Below are positions 3,251 to 62,700 of a stretch of 64,000 bases of DNA, piece after piece; the stretch's first letter is position 1, and each line of letters begins with the position of its first letter. Under the pieces are notes generated by a model. The model worked only from the letters and a program-made list of their open reading frames with translations, did no database searches and was not told where the DNA came from. This stretch comes from Antedon mediterranea (Eukaryota; Animalia; Echinodermata), in the NCBI RefSeq assembly GCF_964355755.1, contig NC_092680.1, positions 10,106,001-10,170,000 of the forward strand. The letters run 5' to 3'. A program made the translations under genes and the position numbers.

Positions 3251-3286
3251 TCAATCAAGGCAAAATGCACTCATTTAGTATTGGGT

Positions 3287-41791: not shown

Positions 41792-42721
41792 TAAATGTAA
41801 TTTGCGTTCGTTTAAAAGGGGCTTGACGCGAAACATAACGTAGTTTAGTCTGAGCGAATTGAAAAAGGAATGTCCCACGGGGCGCAAAAATACATCATCG
41901 ATGGAAAAGAACGTCCTTTGGGAGAAGACAATCCCCGCTTGTTGATAATATTGTTAGAAATAGTAGCGATAATCTTGAAATTGATTTCACGATTCGGTAA
42001 CTTCTAACGAATAGTCTGTAGTCATTAGAGATCAATTTGTATGACAGTAGTGCATTGAATCATCGCAGAACTTGACGCTGATGTTGTAGGCCTATTACTG
42101 TAAAGTTAAGCAGTGTTTGTTTTTTATCACTTTATTACGCCCGTCGTACACCCGTCCTAACACCAATCCCATATACTGGCGTGCCTCTCTGTTAGTACGA
42201 GATAAGTGCGTAGGACCCTATGCTCATATTGGTATCTCGTACGTGTCCTTTCAGTAATGTAAGGCTTTCTTGTAGCCGTCTTCTGAAGGCACATGGCCGG
42301 TATTTACTCGAGATCCAAGTTTTATAACATGCTTTACACCTTTATTTCAATTTGCTTGATTTATATTAAAACATTTAAAATATACAATTAAGATAACCTA
42401 GCTGTCCGAGTTAAAATCAAACAATTCACTCTATTTATCTTTATGTTGTGTAGGCCTATGAAACACTAATCATTTTTTTTTTAAAGTTTACCATTATGTT
42501 GTAGAGTATATGTATAAATTAATATAAATTATGTATTGTTCGGAAAGTGGGCGCCGGTCTTTCGCCGAACAGTTACGGTTACAACCCATTAATATTCTGA
42601 TGCACAATTTACGACCTATATTTAATTATTTTATTCCAGATTATATAATAAAAGCACAGACAACTTGAGGATAATTTCACTAATACTTGTCATAACTCGG
42701 CTAATAAGTATAATTAAATCA

Positions 42722-43930
42722 CTAGATTTGAACTCGTCACTACGGACGAGTTAGGTTATCCGCAGCGCAAAAGCCACGCGCATGACACATAAGTTAGAAT
42801 ATTGCGCGCAGAAAAACGATTATGCCATTGAAAAAAAATGTTAGTGAGCCCTCTATTTTGCGTCACGTCTGAGTATATACGGTATACGCTATATACTGTA
42901 TACGTACTACATACAGTGCAGAATAGGTGAAAATAAGTGACCAAAGTAATTGACGCTTTTGGACATGATGACGTCATCACAATTTTACAAATGGCAAATA
43001 ATGTGAAAGATAATTGATGGACTTAGACAATATAAAGAAATGGGAGAAATTGAAGACGGATAAGTAGAGATGCGCTCTATTAAATTCGACGAGCTATGAC
43101 GAAAGAAAAAAAAATCCTATATTTTATATTCGGGTGGCCATACGATGACGTCACAATATCCGGTTAGCCATATCAATGCATGATTCGAGAAATAAAACTC
43201 ATCTACTTCCAGAATTTGTAATTTAAAAAAAGTTCACTCTGTAGTTTAGAATTTATGACTGTTTAAAAAAAGGTCTAATTTTGACGAATTTTTGAAGTTT
43301 TTCATCAAAAACGCGCGCAAATTGTTCAATTCTACGTGCTCGTATGACGTGATTTTAAGTCGAAATTGATTGAAAATTGGTAAATTTACTAGAAAAGGCT
43401 GTAAAAACAAAAATCAAGCAAAAAAAAGATGTTTTTGCGCTACGTGCGCACGCGCGCGTAAAAAAATGCGCACGCCTGGGAATTTTTGAAATGCTCAAAA
43501 TGCCCTGAAACGCGTAGAAAGTTGATTAGAAATGGATATTTCGCAATTTGAAATTTTAAACGCGCGTGCGCGCGTAACTTTATGTCAAACATGTCATTTT
43601 TAATCCATAGAAAGTTTGCGCATGATATAACTTAAATTTTCACGAAGTTTCAATAGAAAATGACTTTTGGTTTTCAATCTATGATCAATCATTGAAATTC
43701 ATAAAATCGCGCGTAACTTACGCTGCGCGACTCCAAATTCATAAAAAAAAGTTTCTTGCACATCTACAGCTACAGGGCAATCTTATGACAAAGTTACACA
43801 ATCTTATGTTCTCCAAAATTAGAGATACGCTGCGAACAAAATTCCGGGAAAGAAAGAAGAATAAGATAGAAAAAAAAAAAAAAAGATCCTGACAATAACA
43901 AGGGGTTATCCGCCAAGTGCGGATAACCAA
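42722..43930 (-). mobile_element. Non-autonomous Helentron (HINE) unit A, both termini present
   Basis: CTAGATTTG-AACTCGTC/GACGAGTT hairpin-GGTTATCCGC subTIR at left; GGTTATCCGCCAAGTGCGGATAACC palindrome plus AA at right. Confidence 0.88.
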
Positions 43931-45445
43931 CTAGATTTGAACTCGTCACTTTGACGAGTTCGGGTTATCCGCGCAAAGGCAACATGCACATACTTTAAAC
44001 TATATGAACTTCGACAAATATTATGCCATCCTATGACATGAATTAAACATGTTTACAGTGCTGAATTGTACCTATTATGTAGCATACAGCATGTTATAGA
44101 ATACACTGTTATATGTTATATACAGTGTAGTATATACGAAATTACGAGACCATCTTTTAAATCCAATTGTTAACACGATGATGTCATCAAATTGACATAT
44201 AAAGATAACTATTTTAGAAGATAATTATCTAAATAATTACATTAATACAAATTTGAAGAATGTTGGGCACGTAAAAGTGACATGCGCTCTCGTTTAAACG
44301 CAATGAACTTTTACGCAAAGGATAAAAATACGACTTTTTTTATTCAACTGGCCATATGATGACGTCACAGGATCTGGTTGGCAAAATATTTACATGAATT
44401 CGTATCTACAATTCAATGACTTCCAGAAAACGTTTAAATCATGAATATCACTTTTTATTCTGACGAGATATAACAGATTAAAATTCACTGTAAAGATGAA
44501 AATAAGTGACCCACGTTGTTTAGATTTTTAGACATGATGACGTCATAAGAATTAAAATATTTTAACTCCTGCGAAAGATAGTTGATTGACGTAGACAATA
44601 TTAAAATCTCTGGGGAAATGGAATACGTATAAGTGAGATGCGCTCTGTTGAATGTGATGAGCAATAACGAAAGAGACAAAAATCCTATATTTTATATTTT
44701 AGTGGCCATGCGATGACGTCACAATGTCCGCTTAGCCATATCGATGCATGATTTGATATCTAAAACTCATCTACTTCCAGAATCTGAAATTTTGAAAATG
44801 TTAACCACGGAGTTTAGAATCTATGACTTTTTAAAGAAAGGCATAATTTTCACGAATTTTTGAACTTTTTCATCAAAAACGTGCGTAAATTGTTCAATTC
44901 TACGTGCTCGTATGACGTGATTTTAAGTCGAAATTGATTGAAAATTGGTATATTTACTATAAAAGGCTGAAAAAACAAAAATCAAGCATAACAAAGATGT
45001 TTTTGCGCCACGTGCGTACGCGCGCGTAAAAAAATTGCGCACGCGTGGGAATTTTTGAAATGCTCAAAATGACATGAAACGCGTAGAAAGTTGATTAGAA
45101 GTTGATTTTTCGCATTTTGAAATTTTAAACGCGCGTGCGCGCGTAACTTTTTGCGCAATCTGCCATTTTTAATCCATAGAAATTTTGCGCATGATATGAC
45201 TTAAATTTTCACCAAGTTTCAATACAAAATGACTTTTGGTTTTTAATCTATGATCAATCATTGAAATTCATAAAATCGCACGTAACTTACGCTGCGCAAC
45301 TCCGATATCGTCGAAAAGCTTGGCTGCAAATCTACAGCTATAGGTGAATCTTATGACAAAGGTATACAATCTTATGTTGGCCAGAATTAGAGATACCCTG
45401 CGAACAAAATTCGTGGAAAGAAAGAAGAATAAGATAGAAAAAAAA
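43931..45445 (-). mobile_element. HINE unit B (variant, extra internal subrepeat, lacks right terminal cap)
   Basis: Starts CTAGATTTGAACTCGTC directly after unit A; stops in the A-tract after GAAAGAAGAATAAGATAG. Confidence 0.85.
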
Positions 45446-46598
45446 CTAGATTTGAACTCGTCACTACGGACGAGTTAGGTTATCCGCAGCGCAAAGGCCA
45501 CGTGCACGTCATACGTTAAAATATTGCGCGCAGAAAAACGATTAAGTCATTGAAACAATTTCAGTGTGCTCTCTATTTTTCGTCACGTCTGAGTATATAC
45601 GGTATACACTACATACTGTATACGTACTACATACAGTGCAGAATAGGTGAAAATAAGTGACCAAAGTTATTGACGCTTTTGAACATGATGACGTCATTAC
45701 AATTTTGAAAATGGTGAATCGTGCGAAAGGTAATTGATAGACCTAGACAACATAAAAAAATGGGGGGAAATGGAATACAAATAAGTGGAGATGCGCTATA
45801 TTAAATGTGACGAGCTACGAGGAAAGAGACAAAAATCCTATATTTTATATTCGAGTGGCCATACGATGACGTCAGAATGTCCGGTTAGCCATATTGATGC
45901 ATTATTTGATATCTGCAACTCATCTACTACCAGAATATGTAATTATAAAAAAGTTCACCACGTAGTTTAGAATCTATGACTGTTTAAAAAAAGACATAAT
46001 TTTGACAAATTTTTGAACTTTTTCATCAAAAATGCGCGTAAATTGTTTATTTCTACGTGCTCGTATGACGTGATTTTAAGTCGAAATTGTTTGAAAGCTG
46101 GTAAATTTTCTAAAAAAGACAGGAAAAACAAAAATCAATCAAAAAAATGATGTTTTTGCGCTACGTGCGCACGTGCGCGTAAAAAAATTGCGCACGCGTG
46201 GGAATTTTTGAAATGCTCAAAATGACATGAAACGCGTAGAAAGTTGATTAGATATTAATTTTTCGCATTTTGAAATTTTAAATACGCGTGCGCGCGTAAC
46301 TTTTTATGAAACATGCCATTTTTAATCCATAGAAACTTTGCGCATTATATGACTTAAATGTTCACCAAGTTTCAATACAAAACAACTTTTAGTTTTTATT
46401 CTATGATCAATCATTGAAATTCACAAAATTGCGCGTAACTTACGCTGCGCAACTCGAAATTTGAAAAAAAAAGTTTCTTGCACATCTACAGCTACAGGGC
46501 AATCTTTTGACAAAGTTATACAATCATATGTTGGCCAGAATTAGAGATACGCTGCGCACAAAAAATGGGGGAGAAGGATGTAAGGAAAGAAATAAATA
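45446..46598 (-). mobile_element. HINE unit C (lacks right terminal cap)
   Basis: Same left end and body; ends in purine-rich tract. Confidence 0.85.
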
Positions 46599-47805
46599 CT
46601 AGATTTGAACTCGTCACTTCGGACGAGTTAGGTTATCCGCAGCGCAAAGGCCATGTGCACGCCATACGTTAGAATATTGCGCGCAGAAAAACGATTATGC
46701 CATTGAAAAAATGTTAGTGCGCTCTCTATTTTGTGTCACGTCAAAGTATATACGGTATACGCTATATTCTGTATACGTACTACAAACAGTGCAGAATAGG
46801 TGAAAATAAGGGACCCAAGTTATTGACGCTTTTGCACATGATGACGTCATCACAATTTAAAAAATGGTAGATTATGCGACAGATAATTGATTGGCCTAGA
46901 CAATATAACAAAATGGGGGGAAATGGAATACGGATAAGTGGAGATGCGCTCTATTAAATGTGATGAGCTATGCGAAAGAGACAAAAATCCTATATTTTAT
47001 ATTCGAGTGGCCATACGATGACGTCTCAATTTCCGGTTAGCCATATCGATGCATGATTTGATATCTGCAACTCATCTACTTCCAGAATCTGAAATTTTAA
47101 AAATTTTCACCACGGAGTTTAGAATCTATGACTTTTTAAAAAAAGGTATAATTTTCACGAATTTTTAAACTTTTTCATCAAAAACGCGCGCAAATTGTTC
47201 AATTCTACGTGCTCGTATGACGTGATTTTATGTCGAAATTGATTGAAAATTGGTAAATTTACTAGAAAAGCCTGAAAAAACAAAAAAATGCAAAAAAAAG
47301 ATGTTTTTGCGCTACGTGCGCACGCGCACGTAAAAATAATGCGCACGCGTGGGAATTTTTGAAATGTTCACAATGACATGAAACGCGTAGAAAATTGATT
47401 AGAAGTTGATTTTACGCATTTTGAAATTTTAAACGCGCGTGCGCGCGTAACTTTCTGTGAGACATGCAATTTTTAATCCATAGGAACTTTGCCCTTGGTA
47501 TAACTTATATTTTCACCAAGTTTCAATAAAAAATGACTTTTGGTTTTCAATATATGATCAATCATTGAAATTCATAAAATCGCGCGTAACTTACGCTGCG
47601 CATCTCCGAAATCGTCCAAAAGCTTGGCTGCACATCTACAGCTATAGTTCAATCTTTTGACAAAGTTATACAATATTATGTTGGCCAGAAGATAGAGATA
47701 TGCTGTGGACAAAATTCTGGGAAAGAAAGAAGAATAAGATAGAAGAAAAAAAAAAAAAAGATCCTGACAATAACAAGGGGTTATCCGCCAAGTGCGGATA
47801 ACCAA
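46599..47805 (-). mobile_element. HINE unit D, both termini present
   Basis: Same termini as unit A. Confidence 0.88.
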
Positions 47806-48744
47806 CTAGATTTGAACTCGTCACTACGGACGAGTTAGGTTATCCGCAGCGCAAACGCCACGCGCACGTCATACGTTAGAATATTGCGCGCAGAAAAACG
47901 ATTATGCCATCCATGGAAAAAATGTTAATGCGCTCTCTACTTTTATGGTGAAAGTGTGGTGAATTGTGTCTGGGCCTACAGCATTTATGTTACTTTTGGC
48001 GACGATTGCGTGTCATATTAGTAAAGAACAACGTGGTTACACCTCCATGTTGGATTTGTAATATTATAGCCTAGTATTGCTCCCGATATTGCTTTGCAAT
48101 TTTATATTGTTAAAACGAACATATAGCCTATATTAAAAAAGTTTAAACACAATTGTGTTAAATATAATAGTTAGAAATAGGTAAGATATATTTTGATTAA
48201 TTTGGATTGTTGATTTGTAATATTTAATTGTTTTTGTGTTTGCCATCAAAATGAAATGGCCTAGAGGGCCTAGGCTGCTAGGCTAGGCCTAGCCGTGTCC
48301 CGGATTACCTCTTCAGGAAGGCCTAGACCTAGCCTAGGTTTAGTTGTACAGTACTGTAGTAGAGGCATAATGACGCTAGCCTAGTTCCATTTTGCATCTG
48401 GCTTATAACTATATATTAATTCCTAATTTGTTAACAAACTTTATCTTGAATACCATGCCTTAAAATTAAACACCGGTATAATATAGCCTACTCTACTTAG
48501 CATTGTTAGCAAGCTGAGTCTGCTTTGCGAAGTTCTCTTCTATGCCTACTAGCCTAGGCCTCCTAGGTAGGGGCTAGGCCTAGTTTTTAGTTGTATAAGT
48601 TCCTAAAGAGTTGGAAGAGATACATGTACAGTAATAACATTATTGTTTCTACAGTACTTCATAATCTCTAGAATATCGTAAATAGTGAACATAAAATAAA
48701 TAATTTGTAGAGATGATTTATGGTCTCATGATTGGAAGTGAAGT

Positions 48745-51722
48745 GTTGCCTGTTATTTTGTAGGCATTTATACTATTATGAAACATTTACATAATTCAAA
48801 TTTTATTGTTTGTGATCAAACTATTAAATGAAATTACCATTGAGACAACATGTCGGCCCCAATTAGCTGGCCCATAGCCAAAGTCATTTTAAGGAAATTT
48901 CCTAATTTTTCAGACATTGATTAAGAAGCTTGTTGATTTGGAAAAAGTGTTAATGTTGTTTATTGCCATTATCAATGTTTTTCCTTGTATTTTTTAGATT
49001 GTAATTGTTTTTTTAATTGTTTTTTATTAACAGAAGATTTACAGTTTCAGCTACAGCTGTGAGTATTAGTAGGGCAATTCCACAATTTTTTGGGGGATTT
49101 TGAAAATGTTCAACTTTTAGCAGTCTTAACACGTTTGATATCAAACTAAAGCTAATGTTATATACTTTCAGGATATTTAAGTGGTAAAAAAAATATATAG
49201 ATATATACAGACATATTTCCATTTAAAATAATGATATTTAGAAAACTTAAAAAATAATAAACAATATGAGGTTTACTTAAATCCTATAACAGACAACTAA
49301 ACCCTAATTTATACATGTCATTTCTTTTTAGAATTAAAGAACTAAATATATTGTTTGAGATTTTGTTTAAAAAAATTGAATTAATCAACATAGAAATATT
49401 AAGGAGGGGCCAACATAATTATTAATAAGTTTGTCGGGTTGTTACCAAAAAAATTTTTTAATTTAAGAACCATGTACCTTCTAGACAATTATAATATTTT
49501 CCAAACTATTAAAAATTATAGCTTTACATACACTCATAAGGTTACTTTTTTTTTAAACCTTATTTTTACATTTTTATATGATATTAAAAAGTGTCTGGTT
49601 GTTACCGAGTTGGTCACAAACTGACATGTCAGTCTGTGACCAGTGTTATTACAGTAAGCTAAACCAACATTTTTACAGTAAAATTTATTTCAATATGCTT
49701 TAAAATCAATAATCAAAATATATAGTATATAGTTTTAAAAAATTGAATTAATCAACATAGAAATATTAGATAGGGGCCAACATTTATTAATGATTTTGTC
49801 GGGTTGTTACCGAAAAACAACATTTATTTTTAAATTTAAGAACCATGCACCTTCTTGACAATTATAATATTTTCCAAACTATTAAAAATTATAGTTTTAC
49901 ATATACTCATGAAAAAATGTTAATGTTGTTTATTGCCATTATCAATGTTTTGCCTTGTTTTTTTTAGATTGTAGAAAATATACAGTTTTAGCTACAGCTG
50001 TGAGTATTAGTAGATTATCTGTTAAACAGAGAAAACATATTTTCCTTACTTTGTGAACTGTTGCCTGCCCTAATCAGCCGTTTCATACCCAAAGTCATTT
50101 TGAGGAAATTTCTTAATTTTTCAGACATTGATTAAGAAGCATGTTGATTTGGAAAAAGTGTTAATGTTGTTTATTACCATTATCAATGTTTTTCCTTGTT
50201 TTTTTTAGATTGTAGAAAATATAGAGTTTCAGCTACAGCTGTGAGTATCAGTAGATTATCTGTTAAACGGAGAAAAAATATTTTCCTTACTTTGTGAACT
50301 GTTGCCTGCCCTAATCAGCCGTCTCATACCCAAAGTCATTTTGAGGAAATTTCTTAATTTTTCAGACATTGATTAAGAAGCGTGTTGATTTGGAAAAAGT
50401 GTTAATGTTGTTTATTACCATTATCAATGTTTTTCCTTGTTTTTTTTTAGATTGTAGAAAATATACAGTTTGAGCTACAGCTGTGAGTATTAGTAGATTA
50501 TCTGTTAAACGGAGAAAACATATTTTCCTTACTTTGTGAACTGTTGCCTGTTATTTTGTAGACATTTTGTATTATGAAACATTTACATAATTCAGATTTT
50601 ATTGTTTGTGATCAAACAATTAAATGAAATTACCATTGAGAAAACATGTAGGCCGCAATCAGCCGGCCCATACCCAAAGTCATTTTGAGGAAATTTCTTA
50701 ATTTTTCAGACATTGATTAAGAAGCATGTTGATTTGGAAAAAGTGTTTATGTTGTTTATTGCCATTATTAATGTTTTTACTTGTATTTTTTAGATTGTAG
50801 AAAATATAGGCCTACAGTTTCAGCTACAGCTGTGAGTATTAGTAGATTATCTGTTAAACGGAGAAAACATATTTTCCTTACTTTGTGAACTGTTGCCTGT
50901 TATTTTGTAGGCTTTTTCTATTATGAAACATTTACATAATTCAGGTTTTATTGTTTGTGATTAAAATATTAAATGAAATTAACATTGAGACAACACCCAA
51001 ATACCCAGTCATTTTGAGGAAATTTCTTAATTTTTTAGACATTGATTAAGAAGCATGTTGATTTGGAAAAAGTGTTTATGTTGTTTATTGCCATTATTAA
51101 TGTTTTTACTTGTATTTTTTAGATTGTAGAATATATAGGCCTACAGTGTCAGCTACGGCTGTGAGTATTAGTAGATTATCTGTTAAACGGAGAAAACATA
51201 TTTTCCTTACTTTGTGAACTGTTGCCTGTTATTTTGTAGGCTTTTTCTATTATGAAACATTTACATAATTCAGATTTTATTGTTTGTGATTAAAATATTA
51301 AATGAAATTAACATTGAGACAACACCCAAATACCCAGTCAGTTTGAGGAAATTTCTTAATTTTTTAGACATTGATTAAGAAGCATGTTGATTTGGAAAAA
51401 GTGTTTATGTTGTTTATTACCATCATTAATGTTTTTCCTTGTTTTTTTTTAGATTGAAGAAAATATTCAGTTTCAGCTACAGCTGTGAGTATTAGTAGAT
51501 TATCTGTTAAACGGAGAAAACATATTTTCCTTACTTTGTGAACTGTTGCCTGTTATTTTGTAGGCATTTTCTATTATGAAACATTTACATAATTCAGATT
51601 TTATTGTTTGTGAATATTAAATGAAGTTAGCATTGAGACTACATGTAGGCCCTAATCAGCCGTCTCATACCCAAAGTCATTTTGAGGAAATTTATTAATT
51701 TTTCAGACATTGATTAAGAAGC
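48745..51722 (+). repeat. Tandem array (240-350-bp units, ~7 copies) upstream of RepHel, each with acceptor/short exon/GTGAGT donor signature
   Basis: (T)nAG|ATTGTAGAAAATATACAGTTTCAGCTACAGCT|GTGAGTAT recurring, donors at 49059, 50000, 50241, 50483, 50832, 51161, 51485. Confidence 0.88.
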
Positions 51723-52284
51723 AATTACACCCCTTCATACAGTTAATATCAAGATGTGATAAAACAAATACATTACAAATTGTTAAAAATGCAAAATAAA
51801 GTTTACATCATTTAAAATCGGTAAAATCTACTACAGCTACCATGAAATGTGTTATACAGTATTTTGTGTATTATGAGTGTGCTGCCGATTTATCATTATT
51901 AATTTTACATGATACCTATGACAGGGCCTTATTAAAAAAAATACATTAGTTTTTGTAGTTTATTTTAACCTATAAAAAAAATTGGGTTATGTAAAAGATA
52001 CCAACTAGAATCATATAGTTTGGACTACATTATTTTCAAGTTATGACTCACAACATAGTATGTTTCTTTGATCTATCATCTCTAACTACTAATGAGTTTA
52101 ATTAAGCGATTAAATCGCACAAAGATTGTGAAGTGAATGATTATATCATGCGTATTACAATTATGCTGCTTGAGCATGCTTACTAATACTATGCAAGAAT
52201 TTTCTCTTATAAGTCATGGGGTAGAAAAAATATATAACATTATTAATAATTTTTCTTTCTCTTTTATTGCAGAGTTTTGAAGAA

Positions 52285-52364
52285 TTAATCCGCTGGGTCT
52301 CAGAAGAGACCCGGATCTCCGAAAGAGATCCTGCTCTCCGAAAGAGAGTACCAACGAGGATTAA
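52285..52364 (+). other. Three abutting hairpins within a closing stem (cloverleaf), upstream of the RepHel ATG
   Basis: GGGTCTC-AGAA-GAGACCC, GGATCTC-CGAAA-GAGATCC, TGCTCTC-CGAAA-GAGAGTA; outer TTAATC..GATTAA. Confidence 0.8.
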
Positions 52365-52750
52365 CCGATTATAAGTATTCCATATCAGCAACAACGAAAG
52401 CAAATTTAAAGCAAAATCTCCACTGGATGAATTATTTTAAGCAAAATCTCCACTGGATGAATAAAACGAAATCTCAAATCTTTTTATAGACAGCAGTCTA
52501 TTATCTATCTATCTATCTAAATCTATCTATCTTTCTATTTATTATCTATAGAAACTTTATCAAGGCTTTTGCAGAACCAAAAAAGTTAGGCGTAGTGAAT
52601 ATAAACATTAGTTGTCTCGAAACACAATTTGGAAAGATAAATATAAGTTTAGCAGGAAAAAAAACATATTTGTATAAAGTAATTACGAAGTAGAATACAT
52701 CAATTGTATAGAATTTGAAAACAATTTCTGGATTTGATTAACCATACATA

Positions 52751-55700
52751 ATGGATACACTATTAATAACCTTTATTATTGGTATGTTGTTTTTAATGTT
52801 CTTCTTAATGTTATGGTGCTTTTTTAAGAATAATAAAGAAAATACAAATAAAGGGTACAATAATGTCAATACAGCTGGTAATGTTGATAGTGGTATTATA
52901 GATACAACAGAATTTGAAACAGTCATTGATGAAATCTTGGACCTACTTGACCAATGTTGCTTATCTAAGAATGTCAAAGACAGGAGCACTATAAAACTGG
53001 AAAATGATGATACATGTAATGTCGATTGTGAAGTTATCAAAGATACAACGGAATTTAAAGAAATAATTGATGATATCATAAACATATTATCTTATGGTAC
53101 AGAGGTTGCTTCAGAGTTTGATGATACATGCGATTTGTGTAGTATTGAAGTGAAAGCAGACGACAATTGCATAACATGTGACTGTTGTAGTCAATATTTT
53201 CATGTGAAATGTGTAAGAGATGTTTTTGAAGACAAACTATGTGATTCCAGAGTAATTTGGATTTGTTCAATGTGTGGGTATAGTAATTTTGTTGATAACA
53301 TATTGGGTGAAATAGGTATTCCCTGTCATTTCAATAGATATACGATTCTAGAACCTGATGAATCTGTCACTGCAGACTTAACGAAAAATAAGGAAAAACG
53401 TAATAATGCCAAATTAAAAAAATGTCAACAAACAGGAAGTGAAGATTTACTTGGTAGTGATTGGATAAGGGTAAAATCAAAGAAAAGAACCGACAACAGA
53501 AAAAAAAGATGTAAAAATAGAGGAAATAAGAAAAGGAGAAAGCGCGTTATAAATGGTATAAGTATAGAACCAGGTGTAAAATATATTGGCAAAAGTGTAA
53601 AAGATTTCTATGAAAGACGAAATAATAACAAAATGGAATGGAATATGAATACAAATACTTACAGAGAATACAACAAAGAAAATGCTAAAACGAATGTATT
53701 GGGAAATTCACAAACAATAATTGACGACAGTGGTAGGCCTATGTGTAATGTTTTGAAAAATACCAAAGTAACAAACGGAATACAACAACAATCAGGTGGT
53801 GGTTCGAAACGTTTACGAAATAACAAGGGTCGTTTTGTCAAAACTAAGAAGATTGATAACAAAAAAGCACAAGGTAATGTGAATTTAAAGAATGATTGCG
53901 ATACTATGAAAGATATAAAGAACATGGGTAATAATGACAATTCTGAAACGAAAACTGACGAGGATTTTAAAATGGAATGTAGGCCTACTGTAGAAAACGA
54001 CAACACAGCGACTGACGATGCGAAAGCACAAAATAATAGCAAAATGAATGACAGAAGTAGAATAATTGATAGTAATGGTACAGATCATAAAAATCAAACA
54101 TGTGCAAGTTGTGAATTTGAGGAAAATGAAGTATTGATAATTGATGACGGATGCAAAAAAGCAGTGACTGAAAAAATTAGGTCCCATACTAAACCTAAAT
54201 GTGACCAACATACAATCGATGTGGATATTGAAGTTTTAACAAAAAATAATTTTTCGGAAGAATTGATAATCGATGATGTACCAAAACAAAAAAATACACG
54301 AAAAAGGCAGAAAACACAATCAATAAATGAATTACAAGTATATAATAGTAATGAAAATATAACTGTAGCACAGGGTAATTTTAATCAAGGGAATTATAGA
54401 TTTGGCTTTGCAAGTGGTAAACAGTGTGTTGCAAATAGTCTTGTAGCTATTCTTTATTCTACAAAGAGGAATGGAAATGAATTTTACACCAAAGACCTTG
54501 ATACAATATTGACTCTTGGAAACGAGTTGTACCGTTACATTCAGAAAGATTCCACTATGCACGAGGACCTTTTAATGATTTCTGAACTGCCGAAAGAATT
54601 GGATATCTTGGATAACACATTTGTAATATCTCCCAAAGAATCAGTTTTTGGCATAATAGATGGAAATCTCGAATTTATGGCTGAATATGGAGCCTTGTCA
54701 TTAAACCAAGCTCTTGAACAAGAATTACACCAACATGATGCATTTTTTATGAATTTCAACAGAAGCACATTTTCTATTATCAAACGTGTAAATGGATTTC
54801 ATATATTTGATCCACATGCAAGAGATCGATTTGGTTGTGTTAGTGAACATGGAAAGAGTATTTTACTTTACAGTCCATCTTGGCAAGGTGTGTACGATTA
54901 TTGTATAAGATTAGCAAGGTCAATGAACTGTAATTTACATGAAACCGAGTTTGAACTGACTGGTGTAAATATTGAAAATAAGTCTATGATGTTATGTTCC
55001 GCTTCTGTGCTCGATGATAATTGTGAACAAAGAAACTTGGGAAACGTCGATGTTGATGAACCTAGTACGTCTTATCAGTATAAATGTAGTACAAGATTAC
55101 CAGACAAGAATATTGATTCTAAGGTTAAAGGCCAAAAACATAATAAAGAAGGTCATGTCTCATCAAGTAATGGATGGCAAAGTGATAGTGATATTGAAAT
55201 TGTTAATGTTCAGTATGGAGAAAGACCTGACAAGAATTTTAAATTTATTCCTATCTCAGAAGCACAAAAGAAAAACATGTGTAATGAAGTAGGCATTCAT
55301 TGTGAACATACCGATAGGAATTCTGGTATTAACAGAGCTAGTCAGATTGGACATCCTCTTCAAATTACGAATATTACAGGTGATGGTAATTGTTTTTATC
55401 GTGCAATTTCATACATTATTTCTGGTACTGAAGATAATCATTTTCTTTTAAGAAGAGCAATTACTAATCATTTATTGGAGACTGATGACTTGTTTATTAA
55501 TACATTTAGTCACGAATATAGATCAGTTAAGGAATATGTGTTAAAAAAAAGAGTAATGGATAATGGAACGTGGGCATCCAATACTGAAATAAGTGCAATG
55601 GCAAACTTGCTTAATACAGATATTTATTCATTTAATGATCAACTTTTGACTTGGCAATTGTTTTCTGCTAAAAAGCCAGGAAGAATAGATGATGTTACAA

Positions 55701-58700
55701 CTGACAATGGTATATATATTTTGTACACCATGAATGTGCATTTTAATGTAGTGGAATCTGTTAATGTTAGTCAAAATAATGTTCAGGAAAAAACAGGACA
55801 CGTTGATATGAATGTGACATCGCACAATAAACTTTCAAATACAGAGGCGAATTTTTTTGTAAAGAATTCTACAACAAAGAAACGAAAGCAAACGGGAAAT
55901 GAAACTTGTGAAACATTTGAAGATATAGAACCAAAACACAAAAAGAGTAAAACTGTTGAGGGACCTTGTTCTGGAAATAAAGTAAAAACATTGAGAAGGA
56001 GAAGAAAAATATCTTATGAAAATAGAAAGCAAAAAGAAAAGAATCGTCAGAGAATGAAAAGAAGAAGAGAAGAAAAAGATAATTCAATAGAAAAAAATGA
56101 AAATAGAAACAAATATCAAAGTGATCCTGCATACAGAGAAGAAAAGAAACGTAAAGTAAAAGAGGCACAACAAGTAAGATATGCTGATGATGATTATAAA
56201 TTCAAAAAAAGGAAGGAAAACAGAAAAAGACAACAAAAAATGTATAGATGTGAACCTGAATATAATGTTAAGGTACGAAATAAAGCTAAACATAACTACA
56301 ATATTGATTTGGATTACCGAACAACCAAAAAAGTCAACAATCGGTTAAATTATAAATGTAATGAAAAATTTACGCAAAATTTGAAAGAAAAATTGAAAAA
56401 TAGATACAATAATGATATAATATTTAGACATAAAACTAGACAAAATAATAAACAAAGAAATGCAGAAAAGTATCACAATGATTCAAAATTCAGACAAACA
56501 TTGAAGGAAAAATTAGCAGCGAAGTATCGTAATAATTCAAAATTTAGAAAAAACGTTACGCAAAAATTGGCAGAGAAGTATCGGAGTAATTTGAAATTTC
56601 GTCAAAACTGCAAACAAAAATTGGCACAGAAATATCGAGGTAATTTAAAATTTCGTCAAAGTATTAAGGAAAGGTGTAAGCAAAGATTTGCAGAAAAGTA
56701 TCATGGTGATGAAGGGTTCCGAAAAAATATTATGAAGAAAAACATGAAAAATAGGGAAAAAAAGAAAAAAGAAAACAATAATTTTGAGTTTGTTTTAGAA
56801 AATTTCAGGGAAACAGTTTCTCGTGGTCCTGAATATGTTTGTTGCGTATGCTTTAAAATGTTATTCAAAGATCAAGTTATGAAGTGTACCAAAACTAAGT
56901 ACAAAAATAAGGCTTGTATAAATGAAAAGTATTTGCATATTTGCAACAATGAATGTAATAAACCTTGTCAATTTATCGAATCACCAAGATGTCGTTTATG
57001 GATTTGTTTCACATGCCACAGGAAATTGTTAAATGGGAAAGTCCCTGCCGAAGCCAATTCAAACAATTTACAACTACACGATATTCCTCCTGAGCTTAGG
57101 TGTTTAAATAATTTAGAGCAGCATTTGATTGGATTGAACATTCCTTTTATGAAATTAATGAATTTACCTAAAGGTGGACAGCATGGAATACATGGACCTG
57201 TTGTATGTGTACCTTCAAATACTATTGAAACTGTAAAAATGCTGCCTAGACCACAGGTTGATGATCAATTAATATCTGTAAAATTGAAGCGAAAGTTGTC
57301 TTACAAAGGTTATTACAAATATAAATTTGTTAATACTGCTCATGTTATTCAAGCTCTTAGATATTTACAAGATCATAACAAGTGCTATTTTGATATAGCT
57401 ATTAATGAAGAATGGCACAATTATTTATCTGAAGAAAACATCGAAAATACAAATACTAATGGAGATGAAAATCAAACATGTATAGAAAGTAATGAAGAAG
57501 AAGAGGAAGAATTAGAAGACCGATTATGTGGTGCTACCTTTGATACAAGTCTTCAACCTGTTGACAGGCGACAAAATTTGGTTGATGAATATTTTAATGA
57601 CATCATTTGTTGTGCACCGTGTGAAAATAATAGCCCTATTGCATTATTAAGTAATAAAAGCAATGAAGCAAAATCATTTCCAGTGTTATTTCCAACAGGC
57701 CAACCAACATTCCATGATACGAGAGATGTTAAAATAACACTCGGACGTTATTTTCATAATAGATTAATGCATATAGATAACAGGTTTGCACAAAATACAG
57801 AATTCATATTTTATGCTCAATCGTTATATGAACTTCAACAAATTTTATCAAGTATTTCCATTGCATTGCGAAAAGGGTCAAGTAAAAAGGATGATTTTAG
57901 TAAAGTTACTGTATCGGATTTAAAAAATGTTACCAAAATTGACGAAATTTTAAAATCTGATAGGGGTTATAAATTTTTAAAACAAATTCGTGGAACTCCA
58001 CCGTACTGGCAAGCTACACAGAAAGATGTAATAGCAATGGTTAGACAGATTGGAAAGCCAACATTCTTTCTTTCATTCTCAAGTGCTGACTTCCGTTGGA
58101 AAGAAATAATGACGACATTGTTAAATCAGTCAGGAGACCAAAGAAACATTGAAGAATTGGAATGGGCAGATAAATGTAATTTGTTGAAATCAAATCCAGT
58201 GACTGTTGCCAGAATGTTTGACAAACGCTTTCATACTTTTTTGAAAAATGTAATTTTGTCTGAAGCACAGCCTATTGGTAAAGTCATAGATTATTTTTAC
58301 CGAATTGAATTTCAAATGAGAGGAAGTCCACATGTTCATATGTTAGTATGGGTTGAAAATGCTCCTATTTTTGGTACGGATAAAGATAACGAAGTTATTA
58401 ATTTTGTCGATAAATATATTTCGTGTGCTGTGCCATGTGAAACTGTAGATCCTGAACTGAATGAAATTGTTAAAAGTGTGCAAATTCACAGTAAAAGACA
58501 TTCTAAATCATGTAAAAAAAAGGGAACAAACTGCAGATTTAACTTCCCCAGACAACCTTCTGGAAATACATTTGTTATGAGACCTACAATTGCGGATAAA
58601 GACAGTGATGATAATGATGACAATAAACAAGCAATGGAGCTGTTAACCTCAGTAAAAGATGCTGTGAGTAATGAAGAAACATATAAAAATGCAATAGAAC

Positions 58701-61700
58701 TTTTCCAAAGTTTAGGTATTACACAGAGTGCATTTGAGAAAGCAAATAATTGTGTAGCTACTGAGGAAAAGATTGTTATAAAGAGAAACCCTCAAGATGT
58801 GTGGGTAAATCAATATAATCCTTCCTTATTGAGAGCATGGAATGCTAATATGGATATTCAGTATATTACAAATGTATATGCATGTATTATTTACGTTATA
58901 GGATATATGTCTAAATCTGAACGGGAAATGGGCTTACTTTTATCTCATGCAGCATCAGAAGTGAAAGAAGGCAATGAAGATGCTAGGCAAAGTTTGCGAA
59001 AACTTGGTAATGTTTATATGAATAACCGAGAAGTGTCTGCACAAGAAAGTATTTATCGTGTTTGTAGTTTAAGATTAAAAGAATGTTCAAGGAAAGTTGA
59101 ATTTATCCCAGTAGGACCTAATCCTGTCAGAATGAGTTTACCATTAAGTGTAATTAAAAACAAAAAAGATGATGATGTAAGTGCATGGTTGCCAAATAAG
59201 ATCGACAAATATAAAGCTCGACCTAATAGTTCTGAATTTAATAAAATGTGCCTTGCAAAATTTTGTTCGGAATATAGAATATTGAGTTCATCAGAAATGA
59301 AAGAAAACAAACAAAAAAAGAATGTATATCAGTTAAAAAAACAGTTGGGATTCATCCAAAAAAGAACACGAACTAGTAATGCTATAGTAAGATACCCTCG
59401 ATTTCCAATGGATACAGCACCTGAGAAATATTTTTTGAGTATACTTCAGTTATTTCTACCATTTCGAAAAGATGAACAGTTAAAACCTCCAAATTTTGAA
59501 ACGTACGAACAATTTCATGAGAAAGGATGTGTGAATTTATGTGGCTGTCAATTACAAACGGTAAAGTCAATAGTTAATGGAAACATGAAACAATATGAAA
59601 AAAGTGCTGAAGATGTTGAAGAAGCACAGGAATTTTTATTAAAATTTGGACCACAAGAAGATGCATGGAGCCTATTATGTCCAGAAAGCGAAAAAGAAAG
59701 GTTAGACAACCCAAAGCCAAATGTAGAGGTTGATGATGAAGAAGATGAATTTTTCATTCCAGATTTTGGAATTCAAAAAAATCATACATCTAAGGTAGAG
59801 TCTAATTCATCTAATATTCCAAGACCAGAATTGAACAAAATGATTCGATCTTTAAATGAAAAACAACAACATATATTTTATAAGACAAGACAATGGTGTT
59901 TAGACAAAGTTAATGGTAAAAAACCTGAAGCATTTTACAATTTCATAACTGGAGGCGCTGGTACAGGAAAAAGTCATTTGGTAAATTGTATTTATAATGA
60001 AGCGACACGTATTCTTGGAAAGATTATGGAAAATCCCGATGATTTGTCAATATTGAAATTAGCTCCTACAGGAATCGCAGCATATAATATTAAAGGCCAA
60101 ACAATTCATAGCGCTTTGTCTATCCCGATTAATATTTCACTTCCGTATCAACCACTTGGAGAAGAAAAAATAAGTGCACTTCGTAATAAATTGGGCCAGT
60201 TGCAAATTGTTATTATAGATGAAATATCAATGGTAAATCAAAGGTTACTTTGGTATATCCACGGACGATTAAGGCAAATAAAACAAGTACGCAACGATAG
60301 TCCATTTGGTAACATTTCAGTAATTGCTGTTGGTGATTTTTATCAGTTACCCCCGGTGATGGGCAGTTCGTTATATAAAGACACATTGGAAAGCTCACTG
60401 TGGATAGATAACTTTAAGCAAGTACAGTTAGATCAAATCATGAGGCAAAAAGAAGATAAACAATTTGCTTTATTGTTAAACAAATTGCGTACAAAAGAAA
60501 AACATGATTGTTTGTCTGATAACGATTTATTAGTTCTAAAATCACGTGAAACAGGTGAAGAATGTGAAGATGCTGTTCATATTTACCCACGCAACAAACA
60601 AGTTGATGAATGGAATAAAAAAATGTTGCACAAAACCTGTACAGACATTGTATGCATTAAAGCAGAAGATAGTGTAGTAAATAGCAAGAAACAGAGCAAA
60701 AATTGTGACAAACCTCGGAATTCACGTCAAACTAGTTTACTAAGTTATTTGTGGATTGCAATTAATGCCAGAGTGATGTTGATTAAAAATGTAGATGTTA
60801 AAAAAGGCTTAACGAATGGATGTATGGGACATGTTGATGAAATAGTCAAACCTGATCATAACACCGAACCAGTATCTATTAAAGTAAAATTTGACAATAA
60901 TGACATTGGTATTCAGGCAATTGAAATGTTTAAAGAATCTATGGGGAAAAAATACAGTCGAAAACAATTTCCTCTCAAATTAGCATATGCATGCACAGTT
61001 CATAAAGTGCAAGGAATGACAATGGATAAAGCAGTGGTTTGCCTTAAAGATACTTTTATGCATGGTCAAGCATATGTAGGCCTCAGTCGTGTTACTTCAA
61101 TAACTGGACTTACTATTGAAAATTTTAAACCTAGTCTGATTTATTGTGATCCAAACATAAAGAAGTGCTTAAATAATATGGATTCATACGTACAATGTGA
61201 TAAACAAGGTCATGATTCGGCTTCTAGATTTTCAATAATGTTACATAACATTCAAGGGCTTAAACAACATTTTGTTGATCTTCAGTGTAATGATTTGTTT
61301 ATGAATTCTAATATCATATGTCTAACTGAAACATGGTTAAACAAGGATGATGATGTTTTTGACGTACGCATTGAGCCGTATAAATTGTATCACCAAGCAA
61401 GGTATGATTCGTATTCTAATACAAATGATCTCAGTTCCAAAATAAAACATCAGGCTCATGGTGGCGTTGCAGTGTATGCCAAGAACACGTCTTCAAGCAG
61501 ATTAAACATATGTAATAATGATATAGAAGCAGTTTCATTTTTAATAACAAGTCCGATTTCTGTTGCCGTGTCAGTAATTTATCGACCCCCAAGTTATGAT
61601 ATTAATCAATTCTGTCAAAATTTGAGAAAACATTTGGAAGAGTTACATAAAATGAGCACAAAATGTATTGTAATGGGTGATTTTAATGAAAATCTTTTCA

Positions 61701-61882
61701 AACAATCTTCCAGAGTGAATAATTTAATGGCAGAGAATGAGTACAAACAACATGTTACATGTTCCACCACTGAAAACAATACATTGATTGATCATGTTTA
61801 TAGCAAAGGTCTTGATTCAGTACAGGCTGAAGTAATTCCAATTTATTATAGCTATCATGAAGCCATTCAAATTAAATTCTAA
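52751..61882 (+). CDS. Helentron RepHel polyprotein: hydrophobic N-anchor, PHD, VTD/C76 DUB, OTU, basic repeats, Zn-Cys, HUH Rep, Pif1-like SF1 helicase, APE endonuclease
   Basis: 3043 aa, no stops. PHD 53129-53275; QGNFNQG..GKQC..FDPH (54371-54817); GDGNC..W..HF (55379-55747); EFQMRGSPHVH and YVIGY Rep motifs; GGAGTGKS, DEISM, GDFYQLPPV, TVHKVQG, QAYVGLSR; HNIQGL, LTETW, YRPP, GDFN, IDH, SYH. Confidence 0.96.
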   Translation: MDTLLITFIIGMLFLMFFLMLWCFFKNNKENTNKGYNNVNTAGNVDSGIIDTTEFETVIDEILDLLDQCCLSKNVKDRSTIKLENDDTCNVDCEVIKDTTEFKEIIDDIINILSYGTEVASEFDDTCDLCSIEVKADDNCITCDCCSQYFHVKCVRDVFEDKLCDSRVIWICSMCGYSNFVDNILGEIGIPCHFNRYTILEPDESVTADLTKNKEKRNNAKLKKCQQTGSEDLLGSDWIRVKSKKRTDNRKKRCKNRGNKKRRKRVINGISIEPGVKYIGKSVKDFYERRNNNKMEWNMNTNTYREYNKENAKTNVLGNSQTIIDDSGRPMCNVLKNTKVTNGIQQQSGGGSKRLRNNKGRFVKTKKIDNKKAQGNVNLKNDCDTMKDIKNMGNNDNSETKTDEDFKMECRPTVENDNTATDDAKAQNNSKMNDRSRIIDSNGTDHKNQTCASCEFEENEVLIIDDGCKKAVTEKIRSHTKPKCDQHTIDVDIEVLTKNNFSEELIIDDVPKQKNTRKRQKTQSINELQVYNSNENITVAQGNFNQGNYRFGFASGKQCVANSLVAILYSTKRNGNEFYTKDLDTILTLGNELYRYIQKDSTMHEDLLMISELPKELDILDNTFVISPKESVFGIIDGNLEFMAEYGALSLNQALEQELHQHDAFFMNFNRSTFSIIKRVNGFHIFDPHARDRFGCVSEHGKSILLYSPSWQGVYDYCIRLARSMNCNLHETEFELTGVNIENKSMMLCSASVLDDNCEQRNLGNVDVDEPSTSYQYKCSTRLPDKNIDSKVKGQKHNKEGHVSSSNGWQSDSDIEIVNVQYGERPDKNFKFIPISEAQKKNMCNEVGIHCEHTDRNSGINRASQIGHPLQITNITGDGNCFYRAISYIISGTEDNHFLLRRAITNHLLETDDLFINTFSHEYRSVKEYVLKKRVMDNGTWASNTEISAMANLLNTDIYSFNDQLLTWQLFSAKKPGRIDDVTTDNGIYILYTMNVHFNVVESVNVSQNNVQEKTGHVDMNVTSHNKLSNTEANFFVKNSTTKKRKQTGNETCETFEDIEPKHKKSKTVEGPCSGNKVKTLRRRRKISYENRKQKEKNRQRMKRRREEKDNSIEKNENRNKYQSDPAYREEKKRKVKEAQQVRYADDDYKFKKRKENRKRQQKMYRCEPEYNVKVRNKAKHNYNIDLDYRTTKKVNNRLNYKCNEKFTQNLKEKLKNRYNNDIIFRHKTRQNNKQRNAEKYHNDSKFRQTLKEKLAAKYRNNSKFRKNVTQKLAEKYRSNLKFRQNCKQKLAQKYRGNLKFRQSIKERCKQRFAEKYHGDEGFRKNIMKKNMKNREKKKKENNNFEFVLENFRETVSRGPEYVCCVCFKMLFKDQVMKCTKTKYKNKACINEKYLHICNNECNKPCQFIESPRCRLWICFTCHRKLLNGKVPAEANSNNLQLHDIPPELRCLNNLEQHLIGLNIPFMKLMNLPKGGQHGIHGPVVCVPSNTIETVKMLPRPQVDDQLISVKLKRKLSYKGYYKYKFVNTAHVIQALRYLQDHNKCYFDIAINEEWHNYLSEENIENTNTNGDENQTCIESNEEEEEELEDRLCGATFDTSLQPVDRRQNLVDEYFNDIICCAPCENNSPIALLSNKSNEAKSFPVLFPTGQPTFHDTRDVKITLGRYFHNRLMHIDNRFAQNTEFIFYAQSLYELQQILSSISIALRKGSSKKDDFSKVTVSDLKNVTKIDEILKSDRGYKFLKQIRGTPPYWQATQKDVIAMVRQIGKPTFFLSFSSADFRWKEIMTTLLNQSGDQRNIEELEWADKCNLLKSNPVTVARMFDKRFHTFLKNVILSEAQPIGKVIDYFYRIEFQMRGSPHVHMLVWVENAPIFGTDKDNEVINFVDKYISCAVPCETVDPELNEIVKSVQIHSKRHSKSCKKKGTNCRFNFPRQPSGNTFVMRPTIADKDSDDNDDNKQAMELLTSVKDAVSNEETYKNAIELFQSLGITQSAFEKANNCVATEEKIVIKRNPQDVWVNQYNPSLLRAWNANMDIQYITNVYACIIYVIGYMSKSEREMGLLLSHAASEVKEGNEDARQSLRKLGNVYMNNREVSAQESIYRVCSLRLKECSRKVEFIPVGPNPVRMSLPLSVIKNKKDDDVSAWLPNKIDKYKARPNSSEFNKMCLAKFCSEYRILSSSEMKENKQKKNVYQLKKQLGFIQKRTRTSNAIVRYPRFPMDTAPEKYFLSILQLFLPFRKDEQLKPPNFETYEQFHEKGCVNLCGCQLQTVKSIVNGNMKQYEKSAEDVEEAQEFLLKFGPQEDAWSLLCPESEKERLDNPKPNVEVDDEEDEFFIPDFGIQKNHTSKVESNSSNIPRPELNKMIRSLNEKQQHIFYKTRQWCLDKVNGKKPEAFYNFITGGAGTGKSHLVNCIYNEATRILGKIMENPDDLSILKLAPTGIAAYNIKGQTIHSALSIPINISLPYQPLGEEKISALRNKLGQLQIVIIDEISMVNQRLLWYIHGRLRQIKQVRNDSPFGNISVIAVGDFYQLPPVMGSSLYKDTLESSLWIDNFKQVQLDQIMRQKEDKQFALLLNKLRTKEKHDCLSDNDLLVLKSRETGEECEDAVHIYPRNKQVDEWNKKMLHKTCTDIVCIKAEDSVVNSKKQSKNCDKPRNSRQTSLLSYLWIAINARVMLIKNVDVKKGLTNGCMGHVDEIVKPDHNTEPVSIKVKFDNNDIGIQAIEMFKESMGKKYSRKQFPLKLAYACTVHKVQGMTMDKAVVCLKDTFMHGQAYVGLSRVTSITGLTIENFKPSLIYCDPNIKKCLNNMDSYVQCDKQGHDSASRFSIMLHNIQGLKQHFVDLQCNDLFMNSNIICLTETWLNKDDDVFDVRIEPYKLYHQARYDSYSNTNDLSSKIKHQAHGGVAVYAKNTSSSRLNICNNDIEAVSFLITSPISVAVSVIYRPPSYDINQFCQNLRKHLEELHKMSTKCIVMGDFNENLFKQSSRVNNLMAENEYKQHVTCSTTENNTLIDHVYSKGLDSVQAEVIPIYYSYHEAIQIKF

Positions 61883-61997
61883 TTGCAGCAATGGTTTTTA
61901 AGTATTTGAATTATATTTCTCTAACAACTTTTTAAGAATTGAAAATAGAACTGGATACAAATAAAAAAATACAATTTGATAAAAACAAGATGAAAAT

Positions 61998-62700
61998 CAA
62001 CCCATGTCATTCTCCTGTATAGGAAAAACAAAATCTGGTGTCTAAACACATTTCAATCTTGTTTTTATGTGAGTTATATTATTATAGATTTTGTTCTGAA
62101 TTTGAATATGCAATGTTGCAATCTGTGCACATAATAATCGTTCAATATCTACCAGTATTCAAGTAATGTTAAAAATAAAAAGTAAAATTTCACAGAAGAA
62201 GAAAATACGTTTTGTTTTATACGATTACCAATACTTCATTAGGTCTAAACATAATTTCAGTTGTATAATTGTTTTTTTTATATTATTTTTTTTTTATCTA
62301 TCCAGGTCCACATAAAATTACTAATACAGTAATTTACTCATTTGGAAGAAAAATCAAGTTATTATCTATGCAAGAGGGGCAGCGAATAATCTGTAACTTC
62401 AACCCATGTCATTCTCCTGTATAGGAGAAACAATATCTGGTGAGTAAACACATTTTAATCTTGTTTTTATGTGAGTTATATTATTATAAATATTGTTCTA
62501 AATTTGAATATGCAATGTTGCAATCTGTGCACATAATAATCGTTCAATATCTACCAGTATTCAAGTAATGTTAAAAATAAAAAGTTACATTTTACAGAAG
62601 AAGAAAATACGTTTTATTTTATACGATTACAAATACTTCATCTATCCAGGTCCACTTGAAATTACTAATACAGCAATTTATTTCTTTAAAAGAATAATCA
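61998..62700. repeat. ~400-bp-period tandem duplication downstream of the RepHel stop
   Basis: CAACCCATGTCATTCTCCTGTATAGGA at 61998 and 62400 followed by ~290 bp of high identity. Confidence 0.88.

What the first reader, a model, noticed from the sequence alone, without database searches (positions are those of the whole stretch)
52285..52364. Covarying three-hairpin cloverleaf in the RepHel leader
Seen: three abutting 18-19-nt units of form NNNTCTC-loop-GAGANNN whose outer pairs differ but stay paired (GGG/CCC, GGA/TCC, TGC/GTA). Two carry C-GAAA-G, and all sit inside TTAATC(C)GCTGG...CCAACGAGGATTAA. The structure starts just after a strong acceptor (TTTCTCTTTTATTGCAG at 52272), ~390 nt before the ATG, in otherwise AT-rich DNA. 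Compensatory changes among units suggest selection on structure. Inference: a structured 5'-UTR RNA element (translation control, RepHel autoregulation, or a small ribozyme) or an ssDNA signal on rolling-circle intermediates. I do not recognise it as a named family.
Basis: partly seen in the sequence, partly recalled or inferred. Interest (0 to 1): 0.78.

Follow-up and report, generated by a model that had tools for sequence, protein, structure and literature searches.

The report
Folded RNA in Helentron transposase leader
The spliced, untranslated start of a feather-star rolling-circle transposon's message carries an 80-base stretch predicted to fold into three matching hairpins on a closing stem; it matches no catalogued RNA family, keeps its fold in close relatives, and likely acts as a protein-binding brake on transposase output, although selection on it could not be proven.

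Summary
The structure is real: a 7-bp closing stem and three abutting 7-bp hairpins (52285-52364; -37 kcal/mol, z -5.9), with no Rfam or tRNA match. It begins 12 nt after an acceptor that is used: contigs from 2 of 6 laid runs (two organisms) join an upstream mini-exon to 52273 and run through the motif. It therefore lies in the 5' UTR of an intact 3043-aa Helentron RepHel gene of a crinoid. The differing outer pairs matter: identical triplications of any unit fold as nested rods, and 0 of 48 look-alike minisatellites form the cloverleaf. Close alleles change only a loop, the junction and one stem end, which stays paired, but at ~2% divergence this has no power. No divergent leader could be fetched, so covariation between families is untested, and template switching can mimic covariation between units. 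Neighbouring non-autonomous copies share the termini but lack the motif, which argues against an ssDNA signal; no ribozyme core is present. Best reading: a protein-binding 5'-UTR scaffold damping RepHel translation (0.37). Rivals: neutral repaired triplication (0.28), splicing-enhancer display (0.18). Interest 0.42.

The parts
52285..52364 (+). Four-way junction: 7-bp closing stem plus three abutting 7-bp hairpins with purine-rich (A/C)GAA(A) loops
52285..52291 (+). 5' arm of the closing stem (pairs with 52358-52364)
   Evidence: pair probabilities 0.61-0.91
52295..52312 (+). Hairpin 1, 4-nt loop AGAA
   Evidence: no difference listed
52313..52331 (+). Hairpin 2, 5-nt loop CGAAA
   Evidence: no difference listed
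52332..52350 (+). Hairpin 3; loop CGAAA here, AGAAA in other alleles; the organism-B allele has a fully Watson-Crick stem
52358..52364 (+). 3' arm of the closing stem
52250..52272 (+). Pyrimidine tract and AG acceptor; the exon starts at 52273
   Evidence: spliced contigs in X5 and X11
49968..51484 (+). Six 32-38-nt ATG-free mini-exons ending in GCT|GTGAGT, one per unit of the 241/329-bp tandem repeats (49968-49999, 50209-50240, 50451-50482, 50794-50831, 51123-51160, 51453-51484); source of the upstream side of the splice
   Evidence: loose ends
52427..52489 (+). Weak-context uORF (10 aa from 52457; 20 aa from the duplicated ATG at 52427, a 30-bp duplication absent in X6)
52497..52549 (+). (TCTA)n microsatellite in the leader
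52751..61882 (+). Intact 3043-aa Helentron RepHel ORF: hydrophobic N-terminus, Cys/His finger (PHD-like by eye), Herpes_teg_N (VTD), OTU, DUF6570, Helitron_like_N, PIF1, AP-type endonuclease
47805..47943 (.). Left terminal segment (terminal hairpin plus subterminal inverted repeat), 88-91% identical to the heads of the neighbouring non-autonomous units; the ORF is reversed relative to the usual HLE2 ends
63859..63920 (.). Segment matching the far end of the non-autonomous units, followed by another nested head; the true end probably lies beyond the window
42721..47804 (.). Stack of about 1.2-kb non-autonomous HINE-like units that share the termini but lack the cloverleaf (internal control)

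Best explanation
The 80-nt motif sits in the spliced 5' UTR of the Helentron RepHel message, is predicted to fold into a four-way junction showing three near-identical GAA-loop hairpins, and likely works as a multivalent protein-binding site that would damp RepHel translation. Shown: its sequence, its exonic position 12 nt after a used acceptor, and its retention in close alleles. Predicted by folding: the cloverleaf, and that the different outer base pairs keep the three units from mispairing into a rod. Inferred: origin by local triplication of an 18-19-nt palindrome; binding of a host RNA-binding protein (or RepHel) to the repeated CUC-(A/C)GAA(A)-GAG stem-loop tops; and a protein-stabilised barrier to 40S scanning that acts with the weak uORF downstream to keep transposase output low. 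The three hairpins are short, so by established scanning rules (recalled) the bare RNA would be only a modest barrier and a bound protein is needed.
For: z -5.92 and high pair probabilities in exon context. Spliced contigs in X5 and X11, from two organisms and two studies, join a GT-donor mini-exon to 52273 and run through the whole motif, while contigs of X1, X6, X7 and X9 cross 52272/52273 unspliced. All 9 outer pairs are kept despite 7 differences from unit 2; chance 0.003 under independent point changes. Three identical copies of unit 1, 2 or 3 in the same closing stem each fold as a nested rod. Among 48 collection hits with the same skeleton, none forms three abutting hairpins (best minimum pair probability 0.43, against 0.999 here), and of the 46 that could be scored none combines 9 of 9 outer pairs with different units. 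The three listed allelic changes inside the motif break no stem, and the organism-B allele folds the same at -40.0 kcal/mol. The main ATG has a strong context and the uATGs a weak one.
Against: No binding or translation data. Allelic divergence is about 2% (11 other letters in a 541-letter X6 contig), so about 1.6 changes are expected in 80 nt and stem conservation has no power. One minor X1 contig over 52285-52368 has 5 other letters of which only 1 is listed; the other 4 could break a stem. Leaders of the 60-66% identical RepHel families could not be fetched. The motif ends 386 nt before the ATG and sits much closer to the splice site than to the start codon. The 0.003 figure ignores template switching and the fact that the units were picked because they pair. 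X5 and X11 are not on record as RNA; their RNA origin is inferred from the GT-AG joint.
Confidence: 0.37

Rival explanations
1. Neutral by-product: a short palindrome was triplicated inside an inverted repeat, and replication template switching copied one arm onto the other in each unit, keeping perfect stems without selection; the motif rides along in a young transposon family.
For: TCTC-loop-GAGA minisatellites of 17-19-nt period are common: all 48 collection hits are tandem repeats or repeat-like, and none lies next to a RepHel-like gene. The same leader holds other local duplications (30-bp duplicate, TCTA microsatellite, 241/329-bp arrays). Template switching can create and repair stems in one event (PMC8794818, abstract and opening). 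All pair changes fall in the outer 3 of 7 positions, but with only 3 changes that is not significant (about 0.08, worked by hand).
Against: No minisatellite hit shows unit-specific repaired outer pairs. All 21 hairpin pairs and 7 closing pairs are intact although the units differ by several changes. The organism-B indel also leaves hairpin 3 paired.
Confidence: 0.28
2. Structured exonic splicing enhancer: the hairpins display purine-rich GAA/AGAA loops to SR or Tra2-type proteins just after the 3' splice site and help pick this acceptor for a roughly 10-kb last exon among many competing repeat-borne mini-exon acceptors.
For: The motif starts 12 nt after the used acceptor, with a free GAAGAA directly before it. 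Two of three loops hold AGAA in the allele shared by three organisms. The human Tra2-beta RRM recognises AGAA, and CAA within a stem-loop (PMC3045587, abstract). Six upstream mini-exons carry their own acceptors.
Against: The acceptor already has a long pyrimidine tract and CAG. Loops of 4-5 nt are tight for RRM reading of AGAA (inference). An enhancer would not need identical inner stems or a closing stem.
Confidence: 0.18
3. DNA-level signal: hairpins on single-stranded rolling-circle intermediates, or the relic of stacked internal Helitron2 termini left when a copy inserted in reverse into a non-autonomous element.
For: It also folds as ssDNA (-18.8 kcal/mol). Fusarium FoHeli1/2 5' termini are hairpins with GAA loops, and the same paper models ORF reversal by nested insertion (PMC5148889, passages); this element has a reversed ORF.
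Against: The motif lies about 4.5 kb inside the element and downstream of its own upstream exons. This family's terminal hairpins have other loops and sequences. The 1.2-kb non-autonomous units share the termini and have multiplied without it; no 11-mer of the motif region recurs from 42700 to the window end on either strand. Non-autonomous HLEs need only the terminal sequences they share with autonomous ones (PMC11417382, passages).
Confidence: 0.1
4. A new self-cleaving ribozyme.
For: Compact four-way junction in a mobile element; ribozymes are common in retroelements (search listing).
Against: No Rfam match at gathering score in the whole window and no ribozyme among the 10 weak hits around the motif. 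No hammerhead core pattern (recalled consensus) in it. Few unpaired junction bases, and these vary between alleles. Spliced contigs run through it uninterrupted, and cleavage in a 5' UTR would uncap the message (inference).
Confidence: 0.04
5. Coding exon: the database gene model P0002 reads through the motif (exon 52273-52347) as the RepHel N-terminus.
For: P0002 residues 6-30 match 52273-52347 at 100%; an ATG at 52043 and a GTATGT donor at 52058 would supply its first five residues (read).
Against: Organism B has a 1-nt deletion at 52275 and loses the GT at 52348-52349. Five other family members begin with a peptide homologous to the ATG at 52751. No other protein carries this N-terminus (1 hit, itself, among 3 candidates). 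X5 contigs continue unspliced from 52273 to 52946.
Confidence: 0.03

Closest known systems
Helentron / HLE2 transposons with reversed ORF (HLE2-reverse, FoHeli4/5, Helentron-Da-40, Helitron-1_DR)
   Same: The host element: Rep, PIF1 helicase, AP endonuclease, DUF6570, VTD and OTU domains; subterminal inverted repeat and terminal stem-loop shared with non-autonomous units; reversed ORF (passages of PMC11417382, PMC5148889, PMC3627910, PMC4067079, PMC9741609).
   Different: The hairpins described in those passages are terminal DNA signals. This one is internal, exonic and absent from the non-autonomous units.
Structured 5'-UTR protein-binding elements, e.g. iron-responsive element; enterovirus 5' cloverleaf (both recalled)
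   Same: A leader RNA that would present stem-loops to proteins; the enterovirus cloverleaf has the same topology of a closing stem with three hairpins and a similar size.
   Different: No Rfam match. Here the three arms are repeats of one unit, the element is internal to a spliced leader, and no partner is known.
Loop-displayed exonic splicing enhancers bound by SR/Tra2 proteins (fibronectin EDA exon recalled; PMC2077896 start of abstract seen in the listing; PMC3045587 abstract)
   Same: Purine-rich GAA motifs held single-stranded just after a 3' splice site.
   Different: Very short loops, triple repetition on a closed junction and an already strong acceptor.
Multi-hairpin protein-sequestering RNAs of bacteria (CsrB/RsmZ, cuckoo RNAs; recalled)
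   Same: Several copies of one small stem-loop motif for multivalent binding.
   Different: Those are bacterial and mostly free sRNAs with other loop sequences; no Rfam match here.

Membership tests
Helentron/HLE2 (host element) | RepHel with Rep and PIF1 helicase plus AP-type endonuclease | tested here: met
   Pfam hits
Helentron/HLE2 (host element) | Subterminal inverted repeats and terminal stem-loop shared with non-autonomous derivatives | tested here: inconclusive
   Left end met (47805-47943, 88-91% to unit heads); the last ~50 bp of the right end are not in the window
Helitron2 terminal hairpin (LTS/RTS) | Located at an element end and shared with non-autonomous copies | tested here: not met
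   About 4.5 kb internal; absent from units 42721-47804
Any Rfam family | Covariance-model score at or above gathering threshold | tested here: not met
   0 hits in the window; only sub-threshold SmY overlaps of 13.7-14.4 bits against a threshold of 39
tRNA / tRNA-derived element | tRNA arm lengths, 7-nt anticodon and T loops | tested here: not met
   ARAGORN 0 genes; loops are 4-5 nt
Hammerhead ribozyme | Conserved catalytic core around a three-way junction (consensus recalled) | tested here: not met
   6 pattern matches in the window, none in 52285-52364; no Rfam hit
Self-cleaving ribozyme (any) | Site-specific self-cleavage | not testable with these tools
   needs an in vitro assay
Structured 5'-UTR cis-regulatory RNA | Lies in the mature 5' UTR | tested here: met
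   Spliced contigs of X5 and X11 run through it; RNA origin inferred from the GT-AG joint
Structured 5'-UTR cis-regulatory RNA | Covariation among diverged orthologous leaders | tested here: inconclusive
   Only ~2% divergent alleles seen; no homologous leader in the collections
Structured 5'-UTR cis-regulatory RNA | Protein binding and an effect on expression | not testable with these tools
   needs pull-down and reporter assays
Exonic splicing enhancer | Purine-rich single-stranded motif near a splice site that changes splice-site use | tested here: inconclusive
   Position and motif met; effect on splicing not testable

The most novel reading that the evidence does not exclude
A new family of structured regulatory RNA in eukaryotic rolling-circle transposons: RepHel itself, for instance through its basic 18-aa repeats, binds the three loops of its own mRNA leader and shuts off its translation, giving Helentrons an RNA-level copy-number feedback loop.
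Probability: 0.1. Interest if true: 0.75.

Novelty: new variant of a known kind. Interest (0 to 1): 0.42.

Why it matters
How autonomous Helitrons and Helentrons set their transposase level is little studied; the structures described in the papers consulted are terminal DNA hairpins. A selected RNA scaffold in the leader would add an RNA-level control layer to a DNA transposon class and give a small, directly testable 80-nt module. If neutral, it is a clean example of a repeat that looks covarying without function, a useful caution for structure screens. Searches that showed no such element in their listings: (listings only, open-access library; paywalled papers, Repbase entries and supplements were not seen).

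Tried and rejected
No whole genome is held for this window, so copies could not be aligned directly. Pattern scans for the motif: viral contigs gave 1, 1 and 0 stretches; the two hits are tandem repeats, L001 inside a long ORF and L009. Metagenome and prokaryote genome scans gave 44 and 4 stretches, all tandem repeats or repeat-like, none with a tblastn match to RepHel proteins. Protein-based locus scans of viral contigs: 0 of 11 candidates confirmed, and 7 of 63 with only PIF1- or OTU-level matches of 28-36%. blastn against phages: no match. The sequencing-run search listed no holder on record as RNA; the missing X5 cover at 52085-52269 is not used as evidence, only the junction letters. Six of the 12 listed runs were laid. 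A TTAA-flanked mini-MITE was considered: no empty site or joint was seen in the runs laid and there is no second copy in the window, so it was dropped. Heat-shock or GAGA-factor DNA sites were considered from recall and not tested. A recalled likeness of the 3' part to the rRNA sarcin-ricin loop was dropped because organism B lacks the bases concerned. Earlier-findings look-ups by sequence, relatives and first words were blank. No structure prediction was run, as no candidate binding partner is established.

Full report
Observation. It folds into a 7-bp closing stem and three abutting 7-bp hairpins, -37.3 kcal/mol, z -5.92, 0 of 200 shuffles as good. The fold holds when the whole leader exon is folded (pair probabilities 0.98-1.0, 0.98-1.0 and 0.80-1.0 in the hairpins, 0.61-0.91 in the closing stem). 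Both strands fold about equally well (-36.8 and -36.5), so energy does not pick the strand; the one G-U pair of hairpin 3 favours the + strand RNA only slightly. At least five other places in the window are as stable in an 80-nt scan of 12,784 windows, so the architecture is what is unusual, not the energy. Rfam gives nothing at gathering score in the window and only sub-threshold noise nearby; ARAGORN finds no tRNA.

The host element. The ORF 52751-61882 encodes 3043 aa with Herpes_teg_N, OTU, DUF6570, Helitron_like_N, PIF1 and endonuclease domains, the VTD-bearing Helentron type (PMC9741609, passages). Of 15 proteins found with residues 1-1020, the closest carry the source name Antedon mediterranea, a crinoid, at 100 down to 45% identity; others are from sea urchins and a fish. 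The segment 47805-47943 (terminal hairpin plus subterminal inverted repeat) is 88-91% identical to the heads of a stack of 1.2-kb non-coding units at 42721-47804, and 63859-63920 matches their far end. I infer a roughly 16-kb autonomous element whose ORF is reversed relative to the usual HLE2 ends, as described for some Helitron2 elements (passages of PMC11417382, PMC5148889, PMC3627910, PMC4067079), with the units as its non-autonomous partners.

Is it in the RNA? Twelve runs hold the stretch, none on record as RNA; six were laid. In X5 (organism A) a contig starts exactly at 52273, and its 28 loose letters match, with one mismatch each, two repeat-borne mini-exons that end at GCT|GTGAGT (50804-50831 and 51133-51160). 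In X11 (organism B, another study) a contig shows the same kind of joint to the 32-nt mini-exon type. Contigs of X1, X6, X7 and X9 cross 52272/52273 unspliced. The acceptor is therefore used, and the motif starts at the 13th base of the exon. X5 contigs run on without a joint to 52946. The mini-exons hold no ATG. Between the motif and the main ATG (strong context) lies a weak-context uORF of 10 aa. The database model P0002 reads through the motif as coding sequence, but organism B has a frameshift and loses its donor, five relatives start at the homologue of ATG 52751, and no other protein has that N-terminus.

Selection on structure. For: the outer three pairs differ from unit 2 at 7 positions and all 9 pair; under independent point changes from a unit-2-like ancestor this happens in 0.3% of 200,000 trials. 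Three identical copies of any unit fold as a nested rod instead, so the divergence is what permits the cloverleaf. The 48 collection hits with the same skeleton are tandem repeats or repeat-like; none folds as three abutting hairpins (best 0.43 against 0.999), and of 46 scored (2 dropped for lack of flank) the 9 with 9 of 9 outer pairs all have identical 5' arms. Alleles: 52339 C>A in a loop (a minor X1 contig, X6, X7, X9, X11); 52356 G>A in the junction and a 3-nt deletion at 52349 that leaves hairpin 3 fully Watson-Crick (X6, X7, X11); same fold, -40.0 kcal/mol. Against: these alleles differ by about 2%, so the test has no power; X9 covers only to 52346 and its organism label may not be a third host species; X1 may be the source sample; 4 differences in the minor X1 contig are not listed and could break a stem; the units were chosen because they pair; and template switching can make multi-base compensatory changes in one step (PMC8794818, abstract and opening). 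No divergent leader was obtained, so the decisive test between families is open.

Mechanism. A DNA role is disfavoured. The motif is 4.5 kb from the end, unlike this family's terminal hairpins, and the non-autonomous units multiplied without it. It is not excluded as a relic, since Fusarium Helitron2 5' ends are GAA-loop hairpins and ORF reversal has been modelled by nested insertion (PMC5148889, passages). A ribozyme is disfavoured: no known core, variable junction bases, and continuous contigs. That leaves an RNA element whose constant part is the stem-loop top repeated three times, which is the anatomy of a multivalent protein site (inference). Two outputs fit. One is translation damping in the mature leader, with the uORF (0.37, my choice because the closing stem and rigid junction make sense for a scanning barrier and are not needed by an enhancer). 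The other is splicing-enhancer display, because the motif hugs the acceptor and shows AGAA, which Tra2-beta reads (PMC3045587, abstract; 0.18). A neutral repaired triplication stays at 0.28.

Novelty. The transposon is a known kind. The leader structure matches no Rfam family, and the listings of six literature searches showed no structured leader RNA in a Helitron; I saw listings only for these, and no supplements. I rate it a new variant of a known kind, a candidate structured 5'-UTR element, with function and selection unproven.

Noticed in passing
window 52751-52825: RepHel begins with a strongly hydrophobic segment (19-residue Kyte-Doolittle mean 2.7; 2.6-3.4 in P0003, P0004, P0006, P0007, P0008). 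A likely membrane anchor on a nuclear transposase that also carries two deubiquitinase-type proteases is odd; it might be tethered and released by cleavage.
   Followed up: partly
window 49911-51723: Each unit of the 241/329-bp tandem arrays carries a 32-38-nt mini-exon with its own acceptor and GTGAGT donor, so repeat expansion multiplies 5'-UTR exons; at least one is spliced to 52273 in two organisms.
   Followed up: partly
window 42721-47943 and 63859-64000: Nested stack of about 1.2-kb HINE-like units, each new head next to an A-run of the previous unit, sharing termini with the autonomous element, whose ORF is reversed.
   Followed up: partly
window 52043-52063: ATG followed by a consensus-like GTATGT donor at 52058; if spliced to 52273 it would open a uORF of about 38 codons through the cloverleaf. 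Implied by gene model P0002, not seen in the contigs shown.
   Followed up: partly
window 56462-56652: 54-bp coding repeat giving basic 18-aa repeats in RepHel upstream of DUF6570; possible nucleic-acid-binding region.
   Followed up: no
window 61997-62239 and 62399-62641: 243-bp duplication (95%) downstream of the ORF; the second copy holds a 7-bp hairpin at 62412-62429.
   Followed up: no
window 48256-48330 and 48541-48590: GC-rich CCTAGG/AGGCCT palindrome clusters just inside the left end (80-nt folds to -37 kcal/mol); possibly the promoter region.
   Followed up: no
window 7173-7652, 13189-14835, 17641-18285 (-) and 33303-34526 (+): Reverse-transcriptase fragments of retroelements; 13189-14835 also has RNase H of the LTR type.
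   Followed up: no
window 81-190, 3251-3360, 4401-4510, 38241-38330: Other very stable 80-nt folds (-35 to -38.6 kcal/mol), not examined.
   Followed up: no
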